A stretch of DNA of 64,000 nucleotides from an uncultured Alphaproteobacteria bacterium (GTDB lineage Bacteria; Pseudomonadota; Alphaproteobacteria; RF32; CAG-239), in the NCBI GenBank assembly GCA_944392205.1, contig CALXVV010000002.1, positions 101,025-165,024 on the forward strand. The letters are read 5' to 3'. Positions 1-62,977 of this stretch are shown here, in pieces. The notes beneath the pieces are model-generated. The model did not search any database. It was given only the letters and a program-made list of their open reading frames with translations, and was not told the origin of the DNA. The position numbers were made by a program, and so were the translations under genes. Position 1 is the stretch's first letter, and every line of letters begins with the position of its first letter.

Positions 1-128
1 AGAATAACAACTGCCGGTAAGGCGGTTATTACCAAAACCACTAGTGCCAAAAGAAGCAGTATCTTTTGTAGAAGGTTGAATTTTATTTTTGCTTTGGCCG
101 GTTGGCGCGTTCTTAATGGTTTTATCAT
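1..128 (-). CDS. hypothetical membrane-anchored protein, N-terminal fragment (continues past window start)
   Basis: Minus-strand ATG (128-126) overlaps the TGA stop (127-125) of the upstream ORF as ATGA. Translation MIKPLRTRQPAKAKIKFNLLQKILLLLALVVLVITALPAVVI has a basic N-terminus followed by a hydrophobic helix. The frame stays open to the window edge. Confidence 0.35.
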   Translation of the reverse strand, partial: MIKPLRTRQPAKAKIKFNLLQKILLLLALVVLVITALPAVVI

Positions 129-2191
129 TTAAACACCCAATAAATGATGCTGAGAACAAAGGAACTCAACATGGTTAAAATTGAAAGAATCGAGCCAAAT
201 TTTATGGCCAGCTCCCTGGATTCTTCATCTAGTTTCGGGCTTCCTTGCAAAATACGATTGCGCTCGGTTACCAGAATATTTACTTTCTTTAGAATGGAGG
301 AGTATTCCGTGCGATCTTTTTTCTTGGCCTCGTCGTTTTCTAAGATATCATAAAGCTCTATTATTTTTCCGCTTCTAGAAATTTTTAAGGCTTCTTGCTC
401 TAAGAACTTGCGATATTTTGTGTTGTGGTAATTCATTATAATCGGTTTGGCCGCTTTTACCAGCCATTGGGTTAAGTTTAACAATTGAACCGGGCCGGTC
501 TTGTTTTGAATATTGGCGTATAACCGCATAATTGCGGATATTTGCAACGCATCTTGATTGGAATTGATGTCGGTTAATATTCCGTCTATCTTCTTACCCA
601 TTTTGCAACGCAGGTAGGCTACGATGTTTTTATCATAGGGTTTATCTTCTTTGTTTTCTGAATAGTTCGAATCCAGAGCTTTTAATAATTTTGACGGAGT
701 GTTTACGAACTCCTTGCCTATCAGCGGACTGGTGCAAGGGAGATCATCATCAAAGTCATAAATAATGCGATCAATGCCGTAACCATAATCGTTGCGGTTT
801 AGATAAACCCTAAATTCATTGCTGTTGGCCGGGGCGTGTAAATAAGGCTGTTCTTGATACCAAATCTTGATTAAATCTCCTGATAAAATTTGGTAAAAAG
901 GCTCCAGGGACCTGCCGCTTTTTAATCCATGGAAGATGGCCTTGGGGAGGCCGCTTGGAAAGACATACATGGTGTCACATTTAATTGGCAAGCTGTAGTC
1001 CAAGTAAATACAGATTTGCGGTAACAGCAAACGGTTCGTTTCGCCTTCTTTATCTGCAGATATCAAACGTTCAATCTTGTTATGAAGTTTTTCATTCTCA
1101 AGTCCGTTTTTTATCCATTCCAGAAGTTTTCCGCTTTTAATTACGGCCAGTCCGTCTGCCGGATTTTCCAGCATCGCCAAGGCAACGGATTTTGCCGTGT
1201 AGTATTTTTCTCCGCCTATGTTTAAGGCTCTCATGGAGCGATCTCCTGGTTCGGAGGAAAAGGTTGGATTCTTACCATCCAGATAGTTATAAATTTGTGA
1301 ACTATTCCAGCGGCTTTCAATGCTGTCTTCCAGCATTCCTTTTAGAAGCGGCATAAATTGATTGGGTATTTTTTCGCCGTTGGAAAGAACTGCCAGAGAG
1401 CCTTTTTTGAGCTTTAATCTTTGTAATTCCGGACCGGAGCAGTTTGGTGAAATCTCGTGTTCTAGTACAATCCCTAAAAGGGTTACACCGGCGGCATAGA
1501 TGTCATCGCTGCTGCTGCCTTGCCCACGGCCCTGGGGTATGCACAAGAGGCTTTCTTGAGTTTCGTAAGCGTTGGGTTGGTATAGGGCCGGAAAAGATGC
1601 CGCGCAATCTCCTAAGACGAGTTCAGAGCCTTCTTCGTCCTTAAAAAAGATGTTGTCCATGCGAATGGCTCTGTGAGTCAGATTGTAGTTTTTTAGAGCT
1701 TCACAACCGGAAACCAATGACAATACCAAGGATTTAAATTTTTCAAAACTTGGCCTTTCTTTTGAGATGGCCTGAGAAACCTTCGGGCCGGTCGGGCGGT
1801 TGTAGATTAATGCCATGTTCATGGTCTTTTCAGGCTTATAATCAACAACGCTATAATCTATAAGTTTCAGCAAATTCGGGTGTTCTATTGATTTTAAGTA
1901 GGGCAACATTGAAAGTCTGGGCGGAAAGTTGTTGTCGCACAGGAGGGCAAAAAGTTCACGCTGTGGATTTATTTTGTCTTTTACGACATAGGCCTTGGCC
2001 CCGTTGGCGTTTAATTCCGGCAAAGGATGACTATAGTCAATTTCAAAACGTTCTTTTACAAGGTAAGTATTGTCAGAAACGCCCCCTTCTTGCCGATCTT
2101 GGTTGGAAACCTCTTCTGGTGCCAAAACGAGGTTCTCCTCTGGAGATGAGGTTTCTTTTGAGATTTCTTTGGTGTTTTCTTCTTCCGCCAT
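125..2191 (-). CDS. tail-anchored protein-kinase-like protein, predicted pseudokinase
   Basis: ORF track 125..2269; I prefer the ATG at 2191 (MAEEENTKE). Kinase-fold landmarks by eye: AYVVKDK (VAIK-like Lys), HRAIRMDNIF (HRD loop with Asp replaced by Ala), LGDCAAS (DFG-like), DDIYAAGVTLLGIV (subdomain IX-like). C-terminal hydrophobic helix FGSILSILTMLSSFVLSIIYWVF. Confidence 0.6.
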   Translation of the reverse strand: MAEEENTKEISKETSSPEENLVLAPEEVSNQDRQEGGVSDNTYLVKERFEIDYSHPLPELNANGAKAYVVKDKINPQRELFALLCDNNFPPRLSMLPYLKSIEHPNLLKLIDYSVVDYKPEKTMNMALIYNRPTGPKVSQAISKERPSFEKFKSLVLSLVSGCEALKNYNLTHRAIRMDNIFFKDEEGSELVLGDCAASFPALYQPNAYETQESLLCIPQGRGQGSSSDDIYAAGVTLLGIVLEHEISPNCSGPELQRLKLKKGSLAVLSNGEKIPNQFMPLLKGMLEDSIESRWNSSQIYNYLDGKNPTFSSEPGDRSMRALNIGGEKYYTAKSVALAMLENPADGLAVIKSGKLLEWIKNGLENEKLHNKIERLISADKEGETNRLLLPQICIYLDYSLPIKCDTMYVFPSGLPKAIFHGLKSGRSLEPFYQILSGDLIKIWYQEQPYLHAPANSNEFRVYLNRNDYGYGIDRIIYDFDDDLPCTSPLIGKEFVNTPSKLLKALDSNYSENKEDKPYDKNIVAYLRCKMGKKIDGILTDINSNQDALQISAIMRLYANIQNKTGPVQLLNLTQWLVKAAKPIIMNYHNTKYRKFLEQEALKISRSGKIIELYDILENDEAKKKDRTEYSSILKKVNILVTERNRILQGSPKLDEESRELAIKFGSILSILTMLSSFVLSIIYWVFK

Positions 2192-2318
2192 GGTTGAATT
2201 CTTTCTTTTTTTGCATAGATGAACGAAGTATATTCTAATATTATTAAAAAAATACAAAGATTTTGGCATTGTGTTTTTGATAAATAGATTCTAAACTACG
2301 AAAAAACAGATAAATAAG

Positions 2319-34276: not shown

Positions 34277-34840
34277 CTACATTGCCTTCTTCACGGCCTC
34301 GATGATGTTGTCGAGGACCTCGGCAACAGTCGTTTCATCTGTAATCCACGAGAGATAGCGGCCTTCGCGACAGTAGTCAACTCGGTTGTCAGGGCCGAAG
34401 AAGCTGTCGACTTTTCGATGGATGGCGACAATCGGTCCGTTCCAGTCTCCAGGAATTTCCGTGTCTGAAAGCTCCATGACCTTCTTCTGTTCGATTTCCG
34501 CGGGCGAGGTGCCGGTGAGCTTGGCGTATTTCTCTTTGAGAAGCTCGCGCAGGCGGTCCTCATTGAGGCCTTTGCTTTCCGGATGCTTCAGAATGCCGGC
34601 GTAGTAGAGATCCAGCTGGCAGATGGTTACCTCGGGGGCAATGTCTTCCAGCATCGGGGCCGAAGAGATCTTTTCTATCCTCGTCCATGCCGCTTGGAAG
34701 GGCTCTTGGTAGCGCTTGGCAACTTTCTCTGCTGTCATCTTCATTGCTTCATTTCTGAGAATGAGAGGCACACCGGATTTCTTAATTCCTTCCAACAAGA
34801 AGGTAGCAAATTGCCCGGGTTTGGAAAAAGACGTTTTCAT
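34277..34840 (-). CDS. hypothetical protein (187 aa) with atypical GC3-rich codon usage
   Basis: ORF track entry. Codons are dominated by CTC/CTG, GCC, GGC, AAG, GAG, ATC, GAC and TAC, unlike neighbouring genes (TTG, GCT, AAA, GAA, ATT, GAT). No family recognised. Confidence 0.6.
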   Translation of the reverse strand: MKTSFSKPGQFATFLLEGIKKSGVPLILRNEAMKMTAEKVAKRYQEPFQAAWTRIEKISSAPMLEDIAPEVTICQLDLYYAGILKHPESKGLNEDRLRELLKEKYAKLTGTSPAEIEQKKVMELSDTEIPGDWNGPIVAIHRKVDSFFGPDNRVDYCREGRYLSWITDETTVAEVLDNIIEAVKKAM

Positions 34841-40096: not shown

Positions 40097-40147
40097 GATG
40101 CCGATTATAATCAAATTATCGGATTTAGAAACAAATTTTTTCATATA

Positions 40148-40164
40148 TTACATAAAATATGTAA
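40148..40164. promoter_or_regulatory. 17-bp palindrome in the lptF/G - hydrogenase divergent region
   Basis: ttacat-aaaat-atgtaa. It uses the same hexamer as the half-sites of the 9515-9532 palindrome, in the opposite arrangement. Confidence 0.25.
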
Positions 40165-40282
40165 ATTTTTTATATACATTCCGCTTTTTGGCAAAAATTG
40201 GGGGCCGCTTAAATAAGTTCTTGAATGGTGAAAATTTTGCCGATAAGATATTCCCATAACAATAAACATAAAGGAGATTTTA

Positions 40283-40762
40283 ATGGACGCAGGTTCTTTG
40301 GGCTCTACTGTTGCTGCCAAATGGCGCAAAAAGAGAGGCTCTTTAATTATGGCTTTGCACGAAATCCAGGGTGTTAAAGGGTTCGTGCCATGGGAAGATG
40401 CTGTTGATTTGGCCGAAGGCATGGGAGTGCCGCTGGCCAGAATTTATGAGGTTTTGACTTTTTATAACTTCTTTAAGCTGGATGCTCCCGGCAAGGCCGT
40501 GATCTCCGTTTGTACGGGAACGGCTTGCTACCTCAAAGGAAATGACAAAGTTTTAGAAGAGTTTAAAAAAGAGCTCGGAATCGGCGAAGGCGAAAGTACG
40601 GCCGATAAAATGTTTCATCTACAGAGTGTGCGTTGTGTCGGTTGTTGCGGATTGGCTCCGGTTTGTGTCGTCAACGGCAAAACTTATGGCCGTGTCTCTC
40701 CCAATGATGTGCGCAACATCTTGGATGAATGGCGTAAAAAACTTAGCGAGGAAGAGGAGTAA
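40283..40762 (+). CDS. hydC: NuoE/HydC/HndA-like [2Fe-2S] thioredoxin-fold subunit of an NAD(P)-linked [FeFe]-hydrogenase
   Basis: AAGGAG 6 nt upstream. LHEIQ....IYEVLTFYNFF, CTGTACYLKG and CVGCCGLAP cysteine motifs. Confidence 0.85.
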   Translation: MDAGSLGSTVAAKWRKKRGSLIMALHEIQGVKGFVPWEDAVDLAEGMGVPLARIYEVLTFYNFFKLDAPGKAVISVCTGTACYLKGNDKVLEEFKKELGIGEGESTADKMFHLQSVRCVGCCGLAPVCVVNGKTYGRVSPNDVRNILDEWRKKLSEEEE

Positions 40763-40767
40763 GCACT

Positions 40768-42462
40768 ATGGCCGAAATGGATTTGGATAAGAGATTTGAT
40801 ATTCATGAAATCGCTAAGAACAAAAATGCCGAACTCGAGAGATTTCGTTGCAGCGTCTATTGCTGTCACTCCACGGGGTGTAAGTCTTCCGGCAGTGATG
40901 ATATTATAGATTTGCTTAAAACCGCCGTGGTAGAACACGGGCTTGAGGACCAGGTCAGAATTGTGGCCACGGGGTGTATGGGACTTTGCGCTCAGGGGCC
41001 GCTTATCAGAGTTGAAATTAAGGGGCAGAAAGATGTCCTCTATAAACGAATCGAGCCATTGATTGCGCGCTTGATTGTGACGGAGCATATTGTTCCGGCC
41101 TTGAAGCTTCCACAGGGGCAGGATTTTGAGGTGCCGCCTTTCTTGCAAGAACATATCCTTTCTTTGGAGCTACCCTTCTTTACCAAGCAGGAAAAAGTGG
41201 TGCTCAAAGATGCCGGACATATGGATCCCGAAGATATTCAGGAATATATTGCCCGCGGCGGCTATTTGGCTCTTGAAAAAGTTTTGAAAAATATGACGCC
41301 GGCCGAGGTGATTGATGAAATCAAACGCTCCGGTTTGCGCGGCCGCGGTGGTGGCGGATTCTCTACCGGTATGAAGTGGGAGTTTGCCTCCAAAGTACCT
41401 ACGGTGGATGAAAAATTTATTATCTGCAACGGCGATGAAGGCGACCCGGGTGCCTATATGGACCGCTCTATTTTAGAGGGTGATCCGCATTCGGTGATTG
41501 AAGGTATGATGATTGCCGCTTATGCCATCGGTGCCACACAGGGTTGGTTCTATGTCAGAGCCGAATATCCCTTGGCAGTGGAGCGTTTGGATAAGGCCAT
41601 CAAGGCTTGTAAAAAGAATCGCCTGCTCGGTAACAATATTATGGGAACGGATTTCTCCTTTAATATTGAAGTTCGCCTCGGTGCCGGTGCTTTTGTTTGC
41701 GGTGAGGAAACCGCTCTTATCCACTCCATTGAGGGCAAGAGAGGAACGCCAAGGCCTCGTCCGCCTTACCCGACTAATAAAGGTTTGTGGGATAAGCCTT
41801 CCTGCGTTAATAACGTGGAGACCTTGGGCAATGTGCCTAAGATTATTTTGAAAGGTGCGGATTGGTTCTCCTCTTTTGGAACCGAGACATCTAAGGGAAC
41901 AAAGGTTTTTGCTCTGACCGGGCAAGTTGAACACTCCGGTTTGATTGAAGTGCCGATGGGAACAACCATCAACGAGATTGTTAATGAAATCGGCGGCGGT
42001 GTGCCAAACGGCAAAAAACTTAAGGCCGTGCAAACCGGCGGCCCTTCCGGCGGCGTAATCCCTGCAGAAAAAATGGATTTGCCGGTTTGTTATGAAGAGC
42101 TCAAAAAAATCGGCTCCATCATGGGATCCGGTGGTATGATTGTAATGGATGATTCATCTAATATGGTCAATATTGCCAATTTCTACCTTGATTTTACGGT
42201 TGATGAATCTTGCGGAAAGTGTGCTCCTTGCCGTATCGGCGGAAAACAAATGTTGTTGCTGCTTGAGAAAATCAACAAAGGTAAGGGTACAAAGCAAGAC
42301 TTGGCAGATCTAAAACGAATCGCTACCGCTATGCAAAAGGCTTCTCTTTGCGGGTTGGGGCAAACAGCGCCGAACCCGGTACTCTCTACTCTTAGATTCT
42401 TTGAGAATGAGTATCTGGAAAAACTTGTTGATGCTAAACCTGCTGCCGCGGAGGAGAAATAG
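40768..42462 (+). CDS. hydB: NuoF/HydB/HndC-like flavoprotein subunit (NAD(P)H, FMN, Fe-S)
   Basis: N-terminal thioredoxin-like 2Fe-2S domain (ATGCMGLCAQGP), GLRGRGGGGFSTGMKW, ICNGDEGDPGA, ESCGKCAPCR, SLCGLGQTAPNP. Confidence 0.9.
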   Translation: MAEMDLDKRFDIHEIAKNKNAELERFRCSVYCCHSTGCKSSGSDDIIDLLKTAVVEHGLEDQVRIVATGCMGLCAQGPLIRVEIKGQKDVLYKRIEPLIARLIVTEHIVPALKLPQGQDFEVPPFLQEHILSLELPFFTKQEKVVLKDAGHMDPEDIQEYIARGGYLALEKVLKNMTPAEVIDEIKRSGLRGRGGGGFSTGMKWEFASKVPTVDEKFIICNGDEGDPGAYMDRSILEGDPHSVIEGMMIAAYAIGATQGWFYVRAEYPLAVERLDKAIKACKKNRLLGNNIMGTDFSFNIEVRLGAGAFVCGEETALIHSIEGKRGTPRPRPPYPTNKGLWDKPSCVNNVETLGNVPKIILKGADWFSSFGTETSKGTKVFALTGQVEHSGLIEVPMGTTINEIVNEIGGGVPNGKKLKAVQTGGPSGGVIPAEKMDLPVCYEELKKIGSIMGSGGMIVMDDSSNMVNIANFYLDFTVDESCGKCAPCRIGGKQMLLLLEKINKGKGTKQDLADLKRIATAMQKASLCGLGQTAPNPVLSTLRFFENEYLEKLVDAKPAAAEEK

Positions 42463-42464
42463 TC

Positions 42465-44237
42465 ATGGTAAAGTTAAAGATTGATAATTTTGATGTTGAA
42501 GTGCCGGCAGGAACCTCTATCTTGGAGGCAGCACGTCAGGCGCATATTGATATTCCAACCTTGTGCAAACATCCGGATGTTGACCCTTCGGCCGGTTGCG
42601 GTATTTGTATCGTGAAAGTGGGCGGACGGATTATGCGCTCTTGTTGCACGCCGGTGGCAGAAGGAATGGAAGTCATTACCGGCGATGCCGAGATTGTTGA
42701 CGTGCGTCGCACGGTATTGGAGCTGATTTTGAGCAACCATCCCAACGAGTGTCTGACTTGTATTCGCTCCGGGCATTGCGAGCTCCAGGATATGGCCAAT
42801 ACTTTCGGAATTGCGCATTCCAATCTTCCAAGCCTAAACAAAAAATATGAAAAAGATGACTCAACCAAGGCAATTGTTTTGGATCCGTCTAAATGCATTA
42901 TCTGCGGGCGTTGTGTCGAGGTTTGTCAAAACCAGCAAAATGTTTGGGCTTTAAGTTACTTAAACAGAGGATTGGCAACCAGAATTACTGCAGCAGGCGG
43001 TATTCCCTTGGCTGAAAGTCCGTGTATCAAGTGCGGTCAATGTTCGGCTCACTGTCCGACAGGTGCCATTGTTGAGTATGATGAAACTCAAAAAGTTTGG
43101 GAAATGTTGCGTGACCCCGAGATTGTCACCATCGTGCAAATTGCTCCGGCCGTGCGTGTGGCTATCGGTGAGGAGTTTGGCTATGATTTTGGTGAGAACT
43201 TGACCGGAAAAACCTATGCTGCTTTGCGTAGACTTGGGTTTAACAAGGTGTTTGATACTAACTTCGGTGCAGATTTGACAATCATTGAAGAAGCCAATGA
43301 GTTTGTTCATCGCTTTACGGAAAATCCGCAAAGTTTGCCGATGTTTACTTCTTGTTGTCCGGCATGGGTTGATATGTTGGAAAAATATCATCATGATATG
43401 ATTGATCATTTTTCTACCTGCAAATCTCCGCAATCTATGGTGGGAGCTTTGGCTAAGACTTATTATGCTGAAAAAATGGCGATTAATCCTGCCAAAATCA
43501 GGGTTATCTCGATTATGCCCTGCACGGCTAAAAAATGGGAGATTACCCGCAGCAAGGACATGAGTAGCTCCGGATTCCAAGATGTGGATGTGTCTTTGAC
43601 GACCAGAGAGCTGTGCCGCATGATTAAACAAGCCGGTATTGATTTCCGCAGCCTGCCGGAAGAAGAGGCCGACAGCCCGCTTGGTGAGTATTCCGGTGCC
43701 GGAACCATCTTCGGCGTGACCGGTGGTGTTATGACCGCAGCCTTGCGTACGGCCTATTTCTATATTACCGGTGAAGAACTCGGTGATGTAAACTTTAAGG
43801 CTCTTGAAGGGCTTGATGGTGTGAAAGAGGCCGAGGTCGACATCAAGGGAACCAAAGTGAAGATTGCCGTGGCTCATGGTTGTGGAAATATCGAAATTAT
43901 CTTGGATAGGATTAGAGAGGCCAAGGCCAATGGCGAGGAAATGCCTTATCATTTTGTTGAGGTTATGGCTTGCCGCGGCGGTTGTATATCAGGTGGCGGA
44001 CAGCCCAGAGTTATGATGCCCGGACAGCCAAAACCGCGCGGTATTACCGATGATATTCGTAAAAAACGCGCCAAGGGGTTGATGAATGAGGATTTGAAAG
44101 CAAAGAATCGGCTTTCTCATCATAATGAATCAATCAAAACTTTGTATAAAGAATATTTGGGTGAGGCCGGTTCTCACAGAGCTCATGAGTTGTTGCATAC
44201 TCATTATGTGGCTCGGGATAAGTATAACAAAAAGTAG
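42465..44237 (+). CDS. hydA: [FeFe]-hydrogenase catalytic subunit (M3-type, H-cluster)
   Basis: N-terminal 2Fe-2S ferredoxin domain, HPNECLTCIRSGHCELQ, and two CxxCxxCxxxCP motifs. H-cluster motifs TSCCPAW, MPCTAKKWE and EVMACRGGCISGGGQP. Confidence 0.9.
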   Translation: MVKLKIDNFDVEVPAGTSILEAARQAHIDIPTLCKHPDVDPSAGCGICIVKVGGRIMRSCCTPVAEGMEVITGDAEIVDVRRTVLELILSNHPNECLTCIRSGHCELQDMANTFGIAHSNLPSLNKKYEKDDSTKAIVLDPSKCIICGRCVEVCQNQQNVWALSYLNRGLATRITAAGGIPLAESPCIKCGQCSAHCPTGAIVEYDETQKVWEMLRDPEIVTIVQIAPAVRVAIGEEFGYDFGENLTGKTYAALRRLGFNKVFDTNFGADLTIIEEANEFVHRFTENPQSLPMFTSCCPAWVDMLEKYHHDMIDHFSTCKSPQSMVGALAKTYYAEKMAINPAKIRVISIMPCTAKKWEITRSKDMSSSGFQDVDVSLTTRELCRMIKQAGIDFRSLPEEEADSPLGEYSGAGTIFGVTGGVMTAALRTAYFYITGEELGDVNFKALEGLDGVKEAEVDIKGTKVKIAVAHGCGNIEIILDRIREAKANGEEMPYHFVEVMACRGGCISGGGQPRVMMPGQPKPRGITDDIRKKRAKGLMNEDLKAKNRLSHHNESIKTLYKEYLGEAGSHRAHELLHTHYVARDKYNKK

Positions 44238-44272
44238 TAAAAACTCGGCTGGAGGTTTTCTTGCCCGATAAT

Positions 44273-44305
44273 AAAAAAACGCAGATTGATAATCTGCGTT
44301 TTTTT
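44273..44305. terminator. bidirectional rho-independent terminator
   Basis: acgcagatt (44279-44287) / aatctgcgt (44291-44299) with A7 and T7 flanks, between convergent genes. Confidence 0.75.
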
Positions 44306-44323
44306 ACTTCATATTGTCTGGAA

Positions 44324-55220: not shown

Positions 55221-56585
55221 TTATTGATAGCTCAAAACGTGGTTGGTTTTGGCAATTGAGGTGGTTAGGCGTTTGGCGTCCTCACTCAAGTTCATATTCT
55301 CAAAAATATACAGGGAATCGTGAAAATATTCTAAGGTCTCTTCCAATGTGTCTGTGTCTGCGTCTTTGTTGCCAAGACGATAGTAAATCTCTCCTATCTT
55401 TTCTTGAATCTGCGCCCACAGCAAAGGGTCCCTCTTCTCGGTGATGATTTTTTGCTGATTTTTATAGGCGGCAATCGCCAGCTCGGTTATCTCATCACTG
55501 CCGGTAATGTTGCCAAGGAGAGATAATAAATAGCCTAACTCACCTTCTATCTCTGCCCAGAACTCAGGAAACAGAGCATAGGTGAAAATCTTTTCCGCTT
55601 CTCTTAAATTAAAAACGGCATCTCGCAAAGCTTGCAAATCTTCTTTTTGCCGCCAGTAGTTGAAGTATAATTTGGCAAGTGTGAAAGATATCAACCCATA
55701 GTCGTAGGGATAATTGTATTTGCCAAGGTATTTTTGTGCCAAGCGGTAGTTGCTGATGGCTCCTCTGTAGTAACTGGTGGGATGTTTGGGCAAGTGCATT
55801 GAGGCTGAATCATATAGCTGGCCAAAGTGGTAATAAATACAACCAAGGTGAATGGGGTTCTTTATCAAATCTTGGTGCTTAATGGCCGTTTCTAGCAGAT
55901 TCTTGACAATTTTGAAATCTTTGTCCGTTTCCGAGCGGGCGCAAAAACTCAGATATATAATACCCAAAAAATTCATCACATAGGGGATGTAGTCTATGGA
56001 GAGGGATTTGGCAGAGTTGTCGGAAGACAGCTTGGCGATAATTTTTTTCAGCAAATATCTTTTTTGAATTTGCGGAGTTCTTTCCGTTAAGTTCAAAGCG
56101 CTGATGGTGGCTCCATATAACAGAGTTATCAGTGATGGTGGAAAGAAAATATCTGTTCTTTCAAACAAAACAGCCGGAAAATATAAGCTATCAAGCAGAG
56201 AGACAAAGCTGTCTCCATGGGCGCCGTATTGGTTGCCGGTTTGGAAGTTTAGCCTGATCTTATCTCCTTCCCTGCAGCCCCAAACCAGAACATCTGCTCC
56301 GGTCTTGTCTAATATGTTTTGTCCTTTATCCAGAAGGTCAAACAAGGTGCGGCTTTCCAAGTTTAGGAAAGTTTTATCAAAAGGCTCATCAAAATAACTA
56401 ACGTTTAAGCCTTCACAAGTTTTTAGAAAATTCGCAACAAGCTCTCCGCAATTACCTTCAACATTGTCGGCAAATTCTACGACAACAACGTGAAAGTTTA
56501 TTTGCAAAGCTGCCTCCGGTGTTAGGTCCTCCGGATCGGCCGGGCGAGGTTGCAGGAAAAATTTTTTCAAAAAATCTAGCAGCAT
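55221..56585 (-). CDS. hypothetical protein with a TPR-like C-terminal half
   Basis: Repeated helical pairs with the Y/A/L spacing typical of TPR (AISNYRLAQKYLGK, LAKLYFNYW, IGEIYYRLGN). The N-terminal roughly 130-aa alpha/beta-looking domain is not recognised. Confidence 0.5.
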   Translation of the reverse strand: MLLDFLKKFFLQPRPADPEDLTPEAALQINFHVVVVEFADNVEGNCGELVANFLKTCEGLNVSYFDEPFDKTFLNLESRTLFDLLDKGQNILDKTGADVLVWGCREGDKIRLNFQTGNQYGAHGDSFVSLLDSLYFPAVLFERTDIFFPPSLITLLYGATISALNLTERTPQIQKRYLLKKIIAKLSSDNSAKSLSIDYIPYVMNFLGIIYLSFCARSETDKDFKIVKNLLETAIKHQDLIKNPIHLGCIYYHFGQLYDSASMHLPKHPTSYYRGAISNYRLAQKYLGKYNYPYDYGLISFTLAKLYFNYWRQKEDLQALRDAVFNLREAEKIFTYALFPEFWAEIEGELGYLLSLLGNITGSDEITELAIAAYKNQQKIITEKRDPLLWAQIQEKIGEIYYRLGNKDADTDTLEETLEYFHDSLYIFENMNLSEDAKRLTTSIAKTNHVLSYQ

Positions 56586-56592
56586 TGCGGTT

Positions 56593-57648
56593 CTATTTAT
56601 CCTTGTTGAGGTGTTTTTTTATCTCGGCAAAGTTCTTTTTGAGCTCGGCGGCAACGGCTTGGTTGGTCTCTCTTATGCCAGAGGTGAGAGTGCTCCAGTG
56701 TACCAGTCGATAAAGCTGCCATGCCGTGATGGCGGCGCAGACCAAAGGTATGGAAATCTGGTTGGGAGCATAAACCTGAAAACAACCAAACAAAACCAAC
56801 AGCAGGTTGATTCTTAAAAAATGGCTGGCGATGGTTGCTTGGGATAATCCTGAAGAAACCGCCTTGGCATAAGCCGTGTCTTGCTTGATGTCGGCAAAGG
56901 CTGGTAAAAACGTCAGCTTTTGAGCGAGCGCAAAAAGCAACTCACAAATGAACAGCATGATGAATATGACAGCCGGAGCGGCTGAGCCTTCTGCCACACA
57001 CCAGGCAAGCTGGCCTCCGATGAGAAACCCCAGCAAATCTACCTCGCTGTCTTTGAGAGAAAGAGCAGCGGGATACCAGTTGTATAGTAAAAAGGCCAGA
57101 GAAACCGCGAACAGGCAGGCATTGGTTAAACCCAGAGCAAAGGGGGCAGCGCCAATCAGCGAGAGAACGAAAATGCCAAGCCCGCTGCAAAGAAGTTCTG
57201 AAACAACCAAAGCAGGCTCTCCATTTAATACTCTTAATCCCACGGCAATGATTGACCACAGAAAGGCAACAATCAATTGGTTACCCCAAAGCGGGAGATT
57301 TGAAAATAAGATTGTTTCAATATTAAAGCATATCAAAACAAAGCTTGCCAGAGAGAAAGAAATCAGCCATCTGAAAATGAGCTTGAGCGGAAAGAATATG
57401 AGTGCGGCAACCGGCAGTGCTGCCAACAGAGGCATTAAAAAAGCCAGAGCAGAAGATGGCGAGATGAAGTCATTGTTGTGCCAACCAAAGATGCCAAAAG
57501 ACACAGAAACCGTAAGAATTAAAGCGTAAATGCCTATGGCAGAGAAAGGAATTTTTGGCTCTTTGCGGCTTAATATGTTGAAAATAATGAACCCGGCCAG
57601 AAGACAAAACAAACTACCAAACAACAGAAAAGTATTTTCCAAACTCAT
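56593..57648 (-). CDS. polytopic integral membrane protein, unknown family
   Basis: 351 aa with about 10 hydrophobic helices. It ends 8 nt before the next gene. Confidence 0.6.
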   Translation of the reverse strand: MSLENTFLLFGSLFCLLAGFIIFNILSRKEPKIPFSAIGIYALILTVSVSFGIFGWHNNDFISPSSALAFLMPLLAALPVAALIFFPLKLIFRWLISFSLASFVLICFNIETILFSNLPLWGNQLIVAFLWSIIAVGLRVLNGEPALVVSELLCSGLGIFVLSLIGAAPFALGLTNACLFAVSLAFLLYNWYPAALSLKDSEVDLLGFLIGGQLAWCVAEGSAAPAVIFIMLFICELLFALAQKLTFLPAFADIKQDTAYAKAVSSGLSQATIASHFLRINLLLVLFGCFQVYAPNQISIPLVCAAITAWQLYRLVHWSTLTSGIRETNQAVAAELKKNFAEIKKHLNKDK

Positions 57649-57730
57649 CTTTTGCCCCTTTGAGCTAATCTAAACTGAAAAGAGTATAATCTGGATGCTT
57701 GTTTTCTTCAAGCAAGATTAACAGGTTATG

Positions 57731-58654
57731 CTAAAGTTTATTGCGTATTTTCTTTATTAGATTTTTTAAGGTGGTAAAGCGTGAATCTTCAGGCGAAATC
57801 CCGTGAAACAGCAGGGCTTCTAAGCGCTCAAGCAATAAGATGCTGCTTGTTTTTGATAGGCGTTGCAAGAGAGGCGTGTAGTTTTCGGGAATGGCGTATA
57901 TTTCCGATAAGATATCGGCGCTTTCCATTTTTACATTATCAATGCGGCTTAGGTCTACAATTTCTGCAATGCATTTATCTATGATGGCCCGTCCTTCTTT
58001 GGTCTTGCCCAAGGCATAGATGCTTTTTCCGGAAGGCAGATCTAATAAGGCGGCGGTGATGCGTGGGGCAAACCAGTGCCAAAAGTTGGCCGCATCTGCT
58101 TCTTTTGCGCTTGTTTCTATATCGGTGCTGTTAAAAATATCTTGCAGGGAAGTCGCCTGCGGGGAAAGTTCTTCAAGGCTAAACGTTATATTGGGATGAC
58201 GGCTAAAATTTGTAACGTGGTTTTTGTCGCGGCTTAGCCAGCCGTTAAAGTAGGCATTGATGGTTACTTTTCCTAAAATATCGCTTATCAGAGAATTAGG
58301 TGTTGTCGGCACAAAAGAAACAACGGGTGTTTCTGCCAAATAGCGAGGAGAAAGCAAAAGAAGGTCTCTGCGCAGACATGTTATGTTTGAAGCTATGAGG
58401 AGTAAATCCGGCGCAAAATCCAGCTCAAAAGAATAATGAAAATTATGTCGGTGGCTTTGCAAGCGCTGCTCGTTTTTTATGATAAAATCCGTGGCTCCGA
58501 ATTCATCGGCCTCTTGCGGGAGGCAAAGAAGGGTAATTTTATGGCCGCTTTTTTGCAGCTCGGATGCGAGATAAAAACCAAGGGCTGAGGTTCCTAAAAT
58601 GCATATGTTTTTGGGGGCTGTTGTTTGTTTATTTTCTGGCTTGGCAAAAAACAT
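57731..58654 (-). CDS. ketopantoate-reductase-fold (ApbA/PanE-like) protein with a degenerate dinucleotide motif
   Basis: ICILGTSALGFYLASELQKSGHKITLL resembles the PanE N-terminal Rossmann start, but GxGxxG reads GTSALG. The start overlaps the rsmB stop (TAATG). Confidence 0.4.
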   Translation of the reverse strand: MFFAKPENKQTTAPKNICILGTSALGFYLASELQKSGHKITLLCLPQEADEFGATDFIIKNEQRLQSHRHNFHYSFELDFAPDLLLIASNITCLRRDLLLLSPRYLAETPVVSFVPTTPNSLISDILGKVTINAYFNGWLSRDKNHVTNFSRHPNITFSLEELSPQATSLQDIFNSTDIETSAKEADAANFWHWFAPRITAALLDLPSGKSIYALGKTKEGRAIIDKCIAEIVDLSRIDNVKMESADILSEIYAIPENYTPLLQRLSKTSSILLLERLEALLFHGISPEDSRFTTLKNLIKKIRNKL

Positions 58655-59916: not shown

Positions 59917-60068
59917 TTGTTCTTTGCCTTTTGTGGTTTTGAAATCTGCCTTATTTTATTTTATCTGGCGATAATTACAAGAGAGAAAAAATAGACTCTT
60001 GTCAAATAACTTAAACTACGTTACTTTTGAGAAAAAGTTTGTGAAATAACACTCTGAAGAGATTGATA

Positions 60069-60503
60069 ATGAAAAAATATACCGTTTTGCTCCTTGCCCT
60101 TTTGCTTTCGGGCTGTGCATGGATGAACCCTTTTAATTGGTGGGGCGAGCCGGAGGTAAAAGAAGAGGTAAAAACAACTTTTGAGCCAAATAAGTTTTTG
60201 TGGCAGGCTGCCAAAGATAAAGTTGCTTTTATGAAGGAAATTTCCGAAGATAAAGAATCGGGAACCATTACAACCGGGTGGACTTTGGTCGAAGGTGTGT
60301 CCGGAGTTGAGTACCAGCTCGAGATTAAGGTCTTGAGTGAAAAGTTGCGTAGTGATTGTTTGGTTGCCAAAGTCAATAAACGATTGTGGAACGGGCAAGA
60401 GTGGGTGGCAGAGCCTGATAATTTGGAGCTTGACCGAAAGGTGGAAGGTGCAATTTTGAAACAAGCACGAGTTTTATATCGAAAAAGTTTGAACTTAAAA
60501 TAA
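60069..60503 (+). CDS. lipoprotein (DUF3576-like)
   Basis: Lipobox LLLSGC. The position immediately upstream of leuS matches my recollection of DUF3576 genes in Alphaproteobacteria. Confidence 0.6.
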   Translation: MKKYTVLLLALLLSGCAWMNPFNWWGEPEVKEEVKTTFEPNKFLWQAAKDKVAFMKEISEDKESGTITTGWTLVEGVSGVEYQLEIKVLSEKLRSDCLVAKVNKRLWNGQEWVAEPDNLELDRKVEGAILKQARVLYRKSLNLK

Positions 60504-60523
60504 AATTTCTGGGATAATAAACA

Positions 60524-62977
60524 ATGAACAATAAAAGATTTGATGGCAAAGAGAGCTTTGCAGAGTGGCAAAAAGAATGGCCTTTGGAAGATCGTTATAA
60601 CTTCAAAAAAATAGAAAAAAAATGGCAGGGAATCTGGGATGATGAAAAAGCCTACCATGTTGAGATAGACAAGAGCAAACCAAAGTTTTATGCCTTGGTT
60701 GAATTTCCGTACCCTTCCGGTGCGGGGCTGCATGTGGGGCATCCGCGTTCTTATACCGCGTTGGATGTTATCGCTCGCAAAAAGAGAATGCAGGGATTTA
60801 ATGTGCTCTACCCGATGGGCTTTGATGCTTTTGGCCTGCCGGCTGAAAACTATGCCATCAAAACAGGCGTGCATCCTGCCGTATCTACAAAGAAAAATAT
60901 TGAAACTTTTACCAAGCAGCTGAAATCTTTGGGCTTTAGCTTTGATTGGGACAGATGTATCGATACTTCTTCTCCGGAATATTATAAATGGACACAATGG
61001 ATGTTCATTAAGTTCTTTGAAAAAGGTTTGGCCTATAAAGATAAAATCGCCATCAACTGGTGCCCGTCTTGTAAGGTTGGCTTGGCTAATGAAGAAGTTG
61101 TCAACGGACATTGCGAGCGTTGCGGGGCAGAGGTTGTTCGCAAAGATAAAGAACAGTGGATGATTGCTATTACCAAGTATGCCGATAGGCTTATTAATGA
61201 CTTGGAAGGGCTTGATTTTATTGACAGAGTTAAATCTCAGCAAATTAACTGGATTGGCCGCTCCGAAGGTGCCGAACTCGATTTTAAATTCGGGGATGAC
61301 AAATTAACTGTCTTTACAACACGTCCGGATACTGCTTTTGGCGTGACTTATATGGTTTTGGCGCCGGAACATGAGTTCGTACAGAAGTATATGAGCAAGT
61401 TTTCCAACCCCGATGAAGTGAAAGCTTATGTTGAGGCTACGGCTAAAAAGTCTGATCTGCAAAGAACCATGGATGATTCAAAAACAGGTGTCGAACTTAA
61501 AGGGGTTAAGGCTGTTAACCCGTTTACGGGAGGGGAGATTCCGGTTTTTATCTCTGATTATGTTTTGACCGGGTATGGAACCGGTGCAATTATGGCAGTG
61601 CCGGCCCATGACCAGCGTGACTATGATTTTGCCAAAGTCTTTAATTTGCCGATTATCCAAGTTTTGGAAGGCGGGGACATCTCTGAAAAAGCTTGGGAAG
61701 AAGACGGAGCCCATATCAACTCAGGTTTCTTGAACGGTATGAATAAAGAAGACGGCATGAAGGCTGCTATTGAGTATGCGACTTCTCATGGCTTTGGGCG
61801 GGCAAAAGTTAACTTCAAATTGCGAGATTGGGTGTTCTCTCGTCAGCGTTATTGGGGTGAACCTATTCCTATGGTTTATTGTGAAAAATGCGGTTGGCAG
61901 CCGATCCCTGAATCTGAGTTGCCGCTCACTTTGCCGCCGGTGCCGGATTATCATCCCAATGATGAAGGCGAATCGCCTCTTTCTAAAGCCGGTGATTGGC
62001 TCAATGCCACTTGTCCGAAATGTGGCGGCCATGCACGCAGAGAGACTGATACCATGCCAAACTGGGCAGGGTCTTCTTGGTATTTCTTGCGTTATTGTGA
62101 TCCGCACAATGATAAGGAATTTGCCTCTAAAGAAGCTCTGGAGTATTGGATGCCGGTTGATTGGTATAATGGAGGAATGGAGCACACCACTTTGCACCTG
62201 CTTTATTCTCGTTTTTGGCACAAGTTCCTCTATGATTGTGGTTTGGTGCCGACCAAGGAGCCTTATAAAAAACGTACTTCTCATGGCATGATTTTGGCTG
62301 AAAACGGTGAGAAAATGTCAAAGTCTCGCGGAAATGTCATTAATCCAGATGATATTGTTGATGCTTATGGCGCTGATACTTTCCGCTTGTATGAGATGTT
62401 TATCGGGCCGTTTGACCAAGTGGCGATGTGGTCTGATGAGAGTTTGATGGGTGTCTACCGCTTTGTCGGTAAAGTCTATAACCTCTTCAAGAAAGTTTAT
62501 GATATTCCGGCAACGGCAAACGATCTGCGCGCTATGCATAAATGTATTTTGGAAGTAACCGAGCGTATTGATCAGATGAAGTTTAATACTGCCGTGTCTT
62601 CTCTGATGACTTTTGTGAACTATATGTCTTCTCTTGAGAAAGTGCCGGCAGAGCTTTACAGCACCCTTATTCGCTTGATGTCTCCGTTTACACCGCACTT
62701 GGCAGAGGAGATGTGGGCGCGTTTGGGCAATGATACGTTGGTTATTACCGAGGCTTGGCCGGTTGGTGACCCTAAATTGGCAGAGGAAACGACGGTGACT
62801 TACGCCGTGCAAATTTGCGGAAAAGTTCGCGGCACCATAGAAATGCCAAAGGATGCCCCGCGGGAAGATGTTGAAAAAGCAGCGTTGGCTATTGGCAATG
62901 TCCAACGCCAGCTGGAAGGAAAAACAATCAAGAAGATTATTGTTGTTCCTAACAAAATCGTGAACATTGTTGCTTAG
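60524..62977 (+). CDS. leuS: leucine--tRNA ligase
   Basis: HVGHPRSYT (HIGH) and KMSKSRGN (KMSKS); CP1 editing domain present. Confidence 0.95.
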   Translation: MNNKRFDGKESFAEWQKEWPLEDRYNFKKIEKKWQGIWDDEKAYHVEIDKSKPKFYALVEFPYPSGAGLHVGHPRSYTALDVIARKKRMQGFNVLYPMGFDAFGLPAENYAIKTGVHPAVSTKKNIETFTKQLKSLGFSFDWDRCIDTSSPEYYKWTQWMFIKFFEKGLAYKDKIAINWCPSCKVGLANEEVVNGHCERCGAEVVRKDKEQWMIAITKYADRLINDLEGLDFIDRVKSQQINWIGRSEGAELDFKFGDDKLTVFTTRPDTAFGVTYMVLAPEHEFVQKYMSKFSNPDEVKAYVEATAKKSDLQRTMDDSKTGVELKGVKAVNPFTGGEIPVFISDYVLTGYGTGAIMAVPAHDQRDYDFAKVFNLPIIQVLEGGDISEKAWEEDGAHINSGFLNGMNKEDGMKAAIEYATSHGFGRAKVNFKLRDWVFSRQRYWGEPIPMVYCEKCGWQPIPESELPLTLPPVPDYHPNDEGESPLSKAGDWLNATCPKCGGHARRETDTMPNWAGSSWYFLRYCDPHNDKEFASKEALEYWMPVDWYNGGMEHTTLHLLYSRFWHKFLYDCGLVPTKEPYKKRTSHGMILAENGEKMSKSRGNVINPDDIVDAYGADTFRLYEMFIGPFDQVAMWSDESLMGVYRFVGKVYNLFKKVYDIPATANDLRAMHKCILEVTERIDQMKFNTAVSSLMTFVNYMSSLEKVPAELYSTLIRLMSPFTPHLAEEMWARLGNDTLVITEAWPVGDPKLAEETTVTYAVQICGKVRGTIEMPKDAPREDVEKAALAIGNVQRQLEGKTIKKIIVVPNKIVNIVA

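What the first reader, a model, noticed from the sequence alone, without database searches (positions are those of the whole stretch)
40148..44305. Three-subunit NuoE/NuoF-coupled [FeFe]-hydrogenase operon embedded in an alphaproteobacterial housekeeping region
Seen in sequence: three co-directional ORFs with 5-nt and 2-nt gaps, a strong RBS, and a bidirectional terminator at the end. The third ORF carries all three H-cluster motifs (TSCCPAW, MPCTAKKWE, EVMACRGGCISGGGQP) plus the N-terminal 2Fe-2S, His-ligated 4Fe-4S and 2x[4Fe-4S] modules. The first two ORFs carry the NuoE and NuoF cofactor motifs. Codon usage looks like the neighbouring core genes by eye, unlike 34277-34840. Established knowledge: this subunit set is the HydABC/Hnd-type (group A3) NAD(P)H- and ferredoxin-linked, often electron-bifurcating, [FeFe]-hydrogenase known from Thermotoga, acetogens and Desulfovibrio. 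Hydrogenosomes of anaerobic eukaryotes pair an [FeFe]-hydrogenase with NuoE/NuoF homologs. Inference: the surrounding synteny and the Mic60-like gene point to an alphaproteobacterial lineage, so a native-looking copy here bears on H2-producing fermentative metabolism in that lineage and on the origin of the hydrogenosomal module. No hydE/hydF/hydG maturase genes lie in this 64 kb, so the activity of the enzyme is an open question. The flanking genes are lptF/G and a glycogen-synthase-like gene.
Basis: partly seen in the sequence, partly recalled or inferred. Interest (0 to 1): 0.8.

Follow-up and report, generated by a model that had tools for sequence, protein, structure and literature searches.

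The report
Gut alphaproteobacterial [FeFe]-hydrogenase lacking ferredoxin arm
The window carries a real, intact three-gene NAD(P)H-linked [FeFe]-hydrogenase operon of a gut alphaproteobacterium; this kind of operon was published for sister genomes in 2016, but its flavoprotein subunit has lost the iron-sulfur domain that passes electrons to ferredoxin in all characterised electron-bifurcating relatives.

Summary
hydC (40283-40762), hydB (40768-42462) and hydA (42465-44237) form a tight operon with an RBS and a terminal hairpin. All cofactor motifs are intact and codon usage matches the neighbouring genes.

The window comes from a gut MAG contig (CASERH010000001.1). The same operon occurs in at least 60 species-level gut and rumen "Alphaproteobacteria bacterium" MAGs. 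It is often next to lptD-lptF/G, is under strong purifying selection (dN/dS 0.1 or below), and keeps every H-cluster motif.

Degli Esposti et al. 2016 described this cluster, plus HydE/F/G and PFOR, in sister gut genomes and argued for hydrogenosomal ancestry. That argument has since been contested.

What does look unreported in the papers I found is the shape of HydB. It is a bifurcating-type (Bfu) protein, 56-58% identical to the A. mobile and A. woodii enzymes, with the A-x-M, F and GGPSG signatures kept. It lacks the C-terminal 2x[4Fe-4S] ferredoxin-reducing domain and all five Zn/hinge ligands, and this holds across the whole clade. It is a natural equivalent of the engineered T. kivui deletion that loses bifurcation.

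Best reading: a ferredoxin-independent, reversible NAD(P)H:H2 oxidoreductase that arose by domain loss. Maturases are absent from the window and could not be tested in this genome.

The parts
40145..40282 (+). Divergent intergenic region between the lptF/G-like gene and hydC. It holds the RBS AGGAG at 40272-40276. A weak candidate promoter (TTGAAT, 17 nt spacer, TAAGAT, near 40222-40250) is my inference only.
   Evidence: Sequence read. The promoter scan found no + strand site reaching its threshold in this region.
40283..40762 (+). hydC: NuoE/HoxE-like thioredoxin-fold [2Fe-2S] subunit (cluster C1), 159 aa. The Cys77, Cys82, Cys118, Cys122 pattern is present.
   Evidence: Pfam PF01257 at 6.9e-46. 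The best solved relatives are T. kivui HydC 8a6t_C and A. mobile HydC. Cys positions.
40768..42462 (+). hydB: NuoF-like FMN/NAD(P)H subunit, 564 aa. It has the N-terminal [2Fe-2S] thioredoxin-like domain (residues 28-101), the FMN site, the SLBB domain and the N3-type [4Fe-4S] cluster (Cys482/485/488/528). It ends 12 residues after the core, so there is no C-terminal 2x[4Fe-4S] domain and no Zn/hinge ligands.
42460..42467 (+). hydB stop codon followed after 2 nt by the hydA start codon. This is the position where bifurcating relatives encode about 65 more residues (the B3/B4 ferredoxin-like domain).
   Evidence: The same tight junction is seen in all 62 alpha-clade orthologues.
42465..44237 (+). 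hydA: M3-type [FeFe]-hydrogenase catalytic subunit, 590 aa. Domains are N-terminal [2Fe-2S], His-ligated [4Fe-4S], 2x[4Fe-4S], the H-domain with motifs L1-L3, and a C-terminal small-subunit-like domain.
   Evidence: The motifs are conserved in 62/62 orthologues.
44272..44306 (.). Hairpin with a 16-bp stem flanked by A-rich and T-rich runs. It is a likely bidirectional intrinsic terminator shared with the convergent glgA-like gene.

Best explanation
The operon encodes a soluble heterotrimeric [FeFe]-hydrogenase. HydB binds NAD(P)(H) at its FMN. Electrons pass through the HydB N3-type [4Fe-4S] cluster and the HydA accessory clusters to the H-cluster.

HydB has lost the ferredoxin branch: the C-terminal B3/B4 2x[4Fe-4S] domain and the Zn hinge. 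The enzyme therefore most likely works as a ferredoxin-independent, non-bifurcating and reversible NAD(P)H:H2 oxidoreductase. It descends by domain loss from an electron-bifurcating HydABC ancestor.

In the gut or rumen it would either vent NADH electrons as H2 when H2 scavengers keep pH2 low, or take up H2 to make NAD(P)H when H2 is abundant.

Shown here: the gene anatomy, the cofactor ligands, the domain loss, its conservation across the clade, purifying selection, and the nesting of this HydB inside the bifurcating-type clade. Inferred: ferredoxin independence, the direction of catalysis, NAD versus NADP specificity, and maturation by HydE/F/G encoded elsewhere in the genome.
For: - Anatomy and domains.
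- All three subunits best match solved bifurcating HydABC or NiFe-HydABCSL complexes. HydB is 56-58% identical to A. mobile and A. woodii HydB over residues 26-557. Those proteins continue for about 65 more residues, and the window protein stops.
- The alignment to T. kivui HydB (630 aa) ends at residue 565. That is exactly where the engineered deltaBc-term (P565-G630) deletion begins. PMC10021017 reports 'low' bifurcation activity for that variant, and PMC11829005 summarises the deletion as having abolished bifurcating activity.
- Five positions that are C/C/H/C/C in bifurcating-type references are V/(D or N)/K/absent/absent in all 62 alpha-clade HydBs. I assign these positions to the Zn or 'B2' site. 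B1 and the N-terminal [2Fe-2S] cysteines are invariant.
- All 62 orthologues end 10-20 residues after PNPVLST..E.EY with no Cys or His.
- dN/dS is 0.025-0.115 with dS saturated. H-cluster and accessory motifs are intact in 62/62.
- An NJ tree with 200 bootstraps gives alpha clade monophyly 100% and nesting inside Fd-domain-bearing HydBs 100%.
- Precedents for NADH-only trimeric [FeFe]-hydrogenases exist: S. wolfei Hyd1ABC and S. aciditrophicus HydAB (PMC5626996, PMC7311640), and fungal Hyd+NuoEF (PMC13556243).
Against: - HydB keeps every residue-level marker that Losey et al. 2020 and Schut et al. 2022 associate with bifurcating enzymes. These are DPGA-x-M (non-bifurcating enzymes have T/S..K/S/A), GAGAF (non-bifurcating have Y) and GGPSG. 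All are conserved in 62/62 orthologues.
- It also keeps the N-terminal [2Fe-2S] domain that known non-bifurcating HydBs lack. Conservation of these features suggests the gating machinery still matters.
- Sister genomes are reported to have PFOR (PMC4967309). They therefore produce reduced ferredoxin, which a confurcating enzyme would normally use.
- NADH-to-H2 is only feasible at very low pH2, about 1-40 Pa (PMC7311640, PMC13556243).
- No biochemistry exists for this enzyme.
- No maturases were found in the window.
Confidence: 0.55

Rival explanations
1. The enzyme is still an electron-confurcating/bifurcating hydrogenase. Ferredoxin (or flavodoxin) would dock directly on the mobile [2Fe-2S] domains, HydC C1 and/or the HydB N-terminal cluster, bypassing B3/B4.
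For: All bifurcation-associated residues (A-x-M, F, GGPSG) and both thioredoxin-like [2Fe-2S] domains are retained in 62/62 orthologues. The minimal bifurcating site is proposed to be [B1-FMN-C1], which is complete here (PMC11829005). The T. kivui C-terminal deletion was first reported as 'low' rather than zero activity (PMC10021017). Sister genomes encode PFOR (PMC4967309).
Against: The C-terminal B3/B4 cysteines are conserved in all biochemically characterised bifurcating [FeFe]-hydrogenases (PMC9499530). Schut et al. 2022 define the Bfu core by five clusters in BfuB (PMC9304861). The B3/B4 deletion is reported to abolish bifurcation (PMC11829005). Here the whole hinge site is also lost, which looks like complete dismantling of the branch. 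No substitute Fe-S gene is adjacent in 62 loci.
Confidence: 0.22
2. The enzyme is non-bifurcating as in the best explanation, but its physiological role is H2 uptake. It would act as a 'Hox-like' [FeFe] enzyme supplying NAD(P)H from gut H2 for respiration or biosynthesis, not as a fermentative H2 producer.
For: H2 + NAD+ is exergonic at the H2 levels common in gut contents (thermodynamics as discussed in PMC13556243 and PMC7311640). Sister genomes reportedly carry a second 'type A' hydrogenase plus PFOR that could handle ferredoxin-linked H2 production (PMC4967309). The operon sits among housekeeping genes without fermentation genes.
Against: No respiratory or uptake-linked genes were examined, because the rest of the genome is not available here. 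Group A [FeFe]-hydrogenases are mostly H2 producers in vivo. This rival concerns direction only and shares the mechanism of the best explanation.
Confidence: 0.15
3. The operon is an inactive relic, or a recent horizontal acquisition of no physiological importance.
For: No hydE/F/G lies in the 64-kb window or within 10 kb of the operon in any alpha-clade locus. A HydG homologue search did not return alpha-clade proteins in its top 120 hits.
Against: dN/dS is 0.1 or below with saturated dS. All catalytic and Fe-S ligands are intact in 62/62 orthologues. Upstream synteny is conserved across species whose HydA is only 71% identical. Codon usage is native. HydE/F/G are reported in sister genomes CAG:239, CAG:260 and CAG:977 (PMC4967309).
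Confidence: 0.04

Closest known systems
hymABC-like NuoE/NuoF/M3-HydA clusters of gut metagenomic Alphaproteobacteria (Azospirillum sp. CAG:239, CAG:260; Acetobacter sp. CAG:977, CAG:267), Degli Esposti et al. 2016 (PMC4967309)
   Same: Same gene order and same kind of organism: gut 'Azospirillum'/Alphaproteobacteria MAGs. Several loci found here carry those NCBI names. The same evolutionary argument, relevance to hydrogenosomes, was already made in that paper.
   Different: That paper noted the extra N-terminal [2Fe-2S] of HymB. In the passages I read it did not mention the missing C-terminal 2x[4Fe-4S] domain. I could not confirm by accession number that CAG:239 belongs to the clade found here.
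Electron-bifurcating HydABC (A. woodii 7q4v/8a5e, T. kivui 8a6t, T. maritima 7p5h) and the wider BfuABC family
   Same: All three subunits find these as their best solved matches. HydB is 56-58% identical. The FMN site, B1, the N-terminal [2Fe-2S], C1, the signature residues A-x-M, F and GGPSG, and the HydA cluster chain are all present.
   Different: The HydB C-terminal ferredoxin-like domain (B3, B4) and all five Zn/'B2' hinge ligands are absent. The window HydB is a natural counterpart of the T. kivui deltaBc-term mutant.
[quoted passage not shown]
   Same: Same trimeric NuoE/NuoF/HydA logic, and no C-terminal Fe-S domain in the beta subunit. This is the predicted functional analogue.
   Different: Those beta subunits have T/S..K/S/A, Y and no GGPSG. 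They also lack the N-terminal [2Fe-2S] domain and form a separate clade. The window HydB has the opposite state at every residue criterion and is nested in the bifurcating-type clade.
Hydrogenosomal HydA + NuoE/NuoF (Trichomonas; Caecomyces churrovis, PMC13556243)
   Same: An [FeFe]-hydrogenase working with NuoE- and NuoF-like proteins. The fungal complex is NADH-dependent and ferredoxin-independent.
   Different: Eukaryotic NuoE/F are complex-I derived (PMC7449678, PMC13556243) and lack the N-terminal [2Fe-2S] domain. The window HydB scores about 290 bits to mitochondrial NDUFV1 against 675 bits to Bfu-type HydB.

Membership tests
[FeFe]-hydrogenase group A (catalytic subunit) | H-cluster motifs L1 (TSCCPxW), L2 (MPCxxK) and L3 (ExMxCxxGCxxGGGQP) within the Fe_hyd_lg_C domain | tested here: met
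   The motifs are in the translation. PF02906 scores 1.9e-96. TIGR02512 scores 512 bits against a 406 cutoff. The motifs are conserved in 62/62 orthologues.
Trimeric HydABC / group A3-type NAD(P)H-linked [FeFe]-hydrogenase | M3-type HydA with N-terminal [2Fe-2S], His-[4Fe-4S] and 2x[4Fe-4S], co-encoded with NuoE-like and NuoF-like subunits | tested here: met
   NF040763 scores 789 bits against a 765 cutoff. The operon is contiguous in all complete loci. No HydDB classification was available; this assignment rests on architecture.
BfuABC electron-bifurcating family (Schut et al. 2022) | [quoted passage not shown] | tested here: not met
   HydB ends 12 residues after the NuoF core. There is no Fer4 Pfam hit, and the alignments stop about 65 residues before the C-termini of the solved HydBs. 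The domain is absent in 62/62 orthologues.
BfuABC electron-bifurcating family (Schut et al. 2022) | Zn/'B2' hinge site ligands (3-4 Cys plus His) between the core and the C-terminal domain | tested here: not met
   Positions that are C/C/H/C/C in 8 bifurcating-type references are V430, N465, K552 and two non-Cys tail positions (P558, E563) in the window protein, and are replaced or absent across the clade. The assignment of these five columns to the Zn site is my inference from PMC9499530 and PMC8880783.
BfuABC electron-bifurcating family (Schut et al. 2022) | N-terminal thioredoxin-like [2Fe-2S] in BfuB, B1 [4Fe-4S], C1 [2Fe-2S] in BfuC, and the conserved A..M residues near FMN/NAD | tested here: met
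   DPGAYMDR; Cys70/74 and Cys482/485/488/528 invariant; HydC Cys77/82/118/122.
BfuABC electron-bifurcating family | Catalysis that requires NAD(P)(H) and ferredoxin simultaneously | not testable with these tools
   This needs an enzyme assay.
Non-bifurcating NADH-dependent [FeFe]-hydrogenase clade (Losey et al. 2020 criteria) | T/S at T. maritima HydB position 232 and K/S/A at 234; Y at 367; no GGPSG at 427-431 | tested here: not met
   The window HydB has A229, M231, F309 and GGPSG at 424-428. The same holds in 62/62 orthologues.
Non-bifurcating NADH-dependent [FeFe]-hydrogenase clade (Losey et al. 2020 criteria) | Fewer Fe-S domains in the beta subunit than in bifurcating enzymes | tested here: inconclusive
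   The C-terminal clusters are absent, as in non-bifurcating enzymes. The N-terminal [2Fe-2S] domain is present, as in bifurcating enzymes.
Respiratory complex I NuoE/NuoF (the source of hydrogenosomal NuoE/F) | Reaches the NuoF/NuoE equivalog score; no N-terminal [2Fe-2S] domain on NuoF | tested here: not met
   TIGR01959 scores 482 bits, below its 559 cutoff. NuoE models are also below cutoff. An extra N-terminal PF01257 domain is present.
Functional [FeFe]-hydrogenase system | HydE, HydF and HydG maturases encoded in the same genome | not testable with these tools
   They are absent from the window and from 10-kb flanks in all alpha-clade loci. They are reported for sister genomes (PMC4967309).

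The most novel reading that the evidence does not exclude
A widespread gut and rumen clade has a natural 'ferredoxin-arm-less' Bfu core. It keeps all bifurcation-signature residues and both mobile [2Fe-2S] domains under purifying selection. The most novel reading is that it still couples NAD(P)H and a low-potential carrier by a non-canonical route: direct C1 or N-terminal-cluster to ferredoxin/flavodoxin transfer. That would show B3/B4 are dispensable in nature and would redefine the minimal bifurcating module. If this is not so, it is a caught-in-the-act intermediate showing how NADH-only hydrogenases evolve from bifurcating ones.
Probability: 0.2. Interest if true: 0.65.

Novelty: new variant of a known kind. 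Interest (0 to 1): 0.4.

Why it matters
The operon itself is known biology, and its hydrogenosome angle has already been published and disputed. The useful point is mechanistic.

Structural work on HydABC/Bfu enzymes currently debates which clusters are essential for bifurcation. This clade of at least 60 species offers a natural, selected deletion of the whole ferredoxin branch on an otherwise bifurcating-type scaffold. Expressing it would test the residue-based rules now used to predict bifurcating versus NADH-only hydrogenases in metagenomes. Those rules give contradictory answers for this protein.

It would also refine H2 budgets for gut and rumen Alphaproteobacteria, which are abundant: one HydA variant was seen on 531 contigs.

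Tried and rejected
- Exact look-up of the window HydA in the assembly index found nothing on record. The source contig was identified through the genome-contig scan instead.
- I searched for clade maturases by using the bona fide HydG of the Planctomycetota locus L062 as a query. The top 120 hits were Planctomycetota, Acidobacteriota and Lentisphaerae only. This is uninformative for the alpha clade and is not evidence of absence.
- tblastn of L062 HydE/G/F against the window and all 75 loci gave no hits, apart from one generic GTPase match.
- Supplementary Table S3 of Katsyv et al. is not held, so I could not get the residual activity of the C-terminal deletion.
- The promoter scan found no + strand site upstream of hydC above its threshold.
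- Cluster member look-ups did not reveal CAG:239 accessions, so the link to the 2016 paper's genomes rests on shared NCBI naming and gene order.
- I considered and rejected a frameshift or assembly truncation of hydB. The same stop position occurs in 62 independent assemblies.
- I considered and rejected recent HGT, on codon usage and conserved synteny.
I did not pursue it further.

Full report
**Observation.** The three ORFs exist as described. hydC is at 40283-40762 (159 aa), hydB at 40768-42462 (564 aa) and hydA at 42465-44237 (590 aa). All are on the + strand, with gaps of 5 and 2 nt. An AGGAG lies 6 nt before the first ATG. A 16-bp hairpin flanked by A and T runs sits at 44272-44306.

Pfam and NCBIfam assign HydC to the NuoE/HoxE-type thioredoxin-like [2Fe-2S] family. 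HydB has an N-terminal [2Fe-2S] thioredoxin-like domain followed by the NuoF FMN, SLBB and [4Fe-4S] domains. HydA is an M3-type [FeFe]-hydrogenase with a small-subunit-like C-terminus. It scores above NCBI's cutoff for 'NADH-dependent [FeFe] hydrogenase, group A6'.

The neighbours are LptD, LptF/G, a GlgA-like glycosyltransferase, GrpE and AddAB. Further out are DnaB, Lnt, MiaB, RsmB and LeuS, so this is a housekeeping region. GC3 and synonymous codon choice of the three genes are within 0.6 sd of 50 neighbouring genes.

**Origin and distribution.** The window is 100% identical to contig CASERH010000001.1 of an 'uncultured proteobacterium' gut MAG. Close HydA relatives (68-98% identity) occur in about 70 species-representative genomes. 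Nearly all are gut, caecum or rumen 'Alphaproteobacteria bacterium' MAGs. They include 'Azospirillum sp. 51_20', 'Proteobacteria bacterium CAG:495' and Candidatus Scatocola, which NCBI places in Rhodospirillales.

hydC-hydB-hydA is contiguous in every complete locus. lptD-lptF/G lies immediately upstream in about 45 loci, spanning HydA identities from 71 to 100%. dN/dS is 0.025-0.115 with saturated dS. All H-cluster and accessory cluster motifs are intact in 62/62 HydA orthologues. The operon is therefore an old, selected resident of this clade. It is neither a recent transfer nor a relic.

**What is already known.** Degli Esposti et al. 2016 (PMC4967309) reported this NuoE-like/NuoF-like/M3-HydA cluster in gut metagenomic Alphaproteobacteria (Azospirillum sp. 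CAG:239 and CAG:260, Acetobacter sp. CAG:977). They also reported HydE, HydF, HydG, PFOR and a second hydrogenase, and argued for an alphaproteobacterial ancestry of eukaryotic [FeFe]-hydrogenases. The same paper notes that no HymB-type protein exists in anaerobic eukaryotes.

Later analyses place eukaryotic NuoE/F with complex I of Alphaproteobacteria. They find eukaryotic HydA polyphyletic, with the maturases and PFOR closest to Anoxychlamydiales (PMC7449678).

Here, HydB and HydC are clearly of the Bfu/HydABC type and not the complex I type. HydB scores 675 bits to bifurcating HydB, 396 bits to Thermus Nqo1 and about 290 bits to mitochondrial NDUFV1.

The nearest relatives outside the clade are three lineages: a 67% GC lineage (P0121, loci L073-75; its DnaB is only 35% identical to the window's), a Planctomycetota MAG (L062) and a Melainabacteria MAG (L063). 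This favours an ancient acquisition at the base of the gut clade.

**The unexpected feature.** HydB aligns at 56-58% identity with A. mobile and A. woodii HydB over residues 26-557. It then stops, whereas those proteins, and T. kivui and T. maritima HydB, continue for about 65 residues. That extension is the ferredoxin-like domain carrying the [4Fe-4S] clusters B3 and B4.

The alignment to T. kivui HydB ends at residue 565. This is where the engineered deltaBc-term deletion (P565-G630) begins. That variant has low (PMC10021017) or abolished (as summarised in PMC11829005) bifurcating activity. The authors place ferredoxin reduction at this domain.

The truncation is not an assembly artefact. 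All 62 complete alpha-clade orthologues end 10-20 residues after the conserved PNPVLST..E.EY, without Cys or His, and hydA follows at once.

In addition, five positions that are C/C/H/C/C in eight bifurcating-type references are all replaced or absent in the clade. I assign these to the Zn or 'B2' hinge site. In the window protein they are V430, N465, K552 and two non-Cys tail positions (P558, E563). The B1 cysteines and the N-terminal [2Fe-2S] cysteines are invariant.

The residue markers proposed to separate bifurcating from NADH-only beta subunits all show the bifurcating state in 62/62 orthologues. These are A-x-M versus T/S-x-K, F versus Y, and presence of GGPSG (PMC7311640, PMC9304861).

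Among the 45 fifty-percent-identity cluster representatives with the exact A/M/F signature and a complete C-terminus, 38 carry a long Cys-rich tail and only four have a short tail.

A neighbour-joining tree of the NuoF core (200 bootstraps) gives these supports:
- the alpha clade is monophyletic (100%);
- its sister is P0121, which also has a short tail (97%);
- the next group out includes the Fd-domain-bearing Melainabacteria sequence (98%);
- the whole group is nested inside Fd-domain-bearing HydBs (100%).

The architecture is therefore a secondary loss from a bifurcating-type ancestor.

**Mechanism.** The core path is complete: NAD(P)H to FMN, to B1, to the HydA clusters, to the H-cluster. 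The low-potential exit is gone. That exit runs from C1 to B3/B4 to ferredoxin in all three structural models (PMC10021017, PMC9499530, PMC11829005).

The most economical reading is a ferredoxin-independent, reversible NAD(P)H:H2 oxidoreductase. It would be functionally analogous to S. wolfei Hyd1ABC, S. aciditrophicus HydAB and the fungal hydrogenosomal Hyd-NuoEF complex, but of independent origin.

The direction of catalysis in vivo is open. NADH-driven H2 production needs a very low pH2, as in syntrophy with methanogens. H2 uptake to NAD(P)H would be favourable in H2-rich gut contents.

The main rival is that the retained bifurcation signatures and the two mobile [2Fe-2S] domains still support confurcation, with ferredoxin docking directly. 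I give this about 0.2. NAD versus NADP specificity was not determined.

**Maturases.** None lies in the window or within 10 kb of the operon in any alpha-clade locus. The Planctomycetota relative has hydB(truncated)-hydA-pta-hydE-hydG-aspA-hydF in a row. A HydG search seeded from that locus did not reach the alpha clade. Presence in this genome is therefore untested. It is reported for sister genomes (PMC4967309), and the strong purifying selection on the catalytic site argues for an active enzyme.

**Verdict.** The operon is a member of a known and already published kind. The clade-wide loss of the ferredoxin arm, on a scaffold that keeps every bifurcating-type residue marker, is a variant I did not find described in the papers searched. 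It is worth a biochemical test. Interest is moderate.

Noticed in passing
window 34277-34840 (-): A 187-aa ORF with GC3 0.65 (z=+3.65) and poor fit to local codon usage (z=-2.2). It has no Pfam hit. It may be a foreign insert or a spurious ORF.
   Followed up: partly
window 55221-58654 (-) and 60011-61243 (-): Three consecutive ORFs (454, 351 and 307 aa) plus a 410-aa ORF with no Pfam hit; the 454-aa ORF also has no NCBIfam hit (the others were scanned against Pfam only). Two of them have below-average codon fit (z about -2.6 and -1.8).
   Followed up: no
window 125-2269 (-): A 714-aa ORF whose only hit is a weak eukaryote-type protein kinase domain (PF00069, 3.3e-08).
   Followed up: no
Not all ORFs were scanned.
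   Followed up: partly
L062:1-10252: A Planctomycetota MAG carries the same truncated-HydB type, followed by hydA-pta-hydE-hydG-aspA-hydF. This is a compact hydrogenase plus maturase plus acetate-pathway string.
   Followed up: partly
L035 and L036: Contigs titled 'Lactobacillaceae bacterium' and 'Lactobacillus sp.' MAGs, one of them 391 kb. They carry the alpha-clade-type hyd genes at 74-78% identity (hydCBA in L035; L036 holds only part of hydB plus hydA). They are probably mislabelled or mis-binned genomes.
   Followed up: no
L073-L075: The nearest HydB cluster outside the alpha clade (P0121, 65% identity) also lacks the C-terminal domain. It sits in a 67% GC genome of unknown taxon, between dnaB and mscS/ybeY. 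The ferredoxin arm has therefore been lost, or the truncated form exchanged, in several phyla.
   Followed up: partly
HydA homologue clusters (P0397, P0401): One HydA variant of the clade is recorded on 531 contigs, and another on a 1.95-Mb contig. The clade is abundant in public gut metagenomes, and near-complete genomes exist.
   Followed up: no
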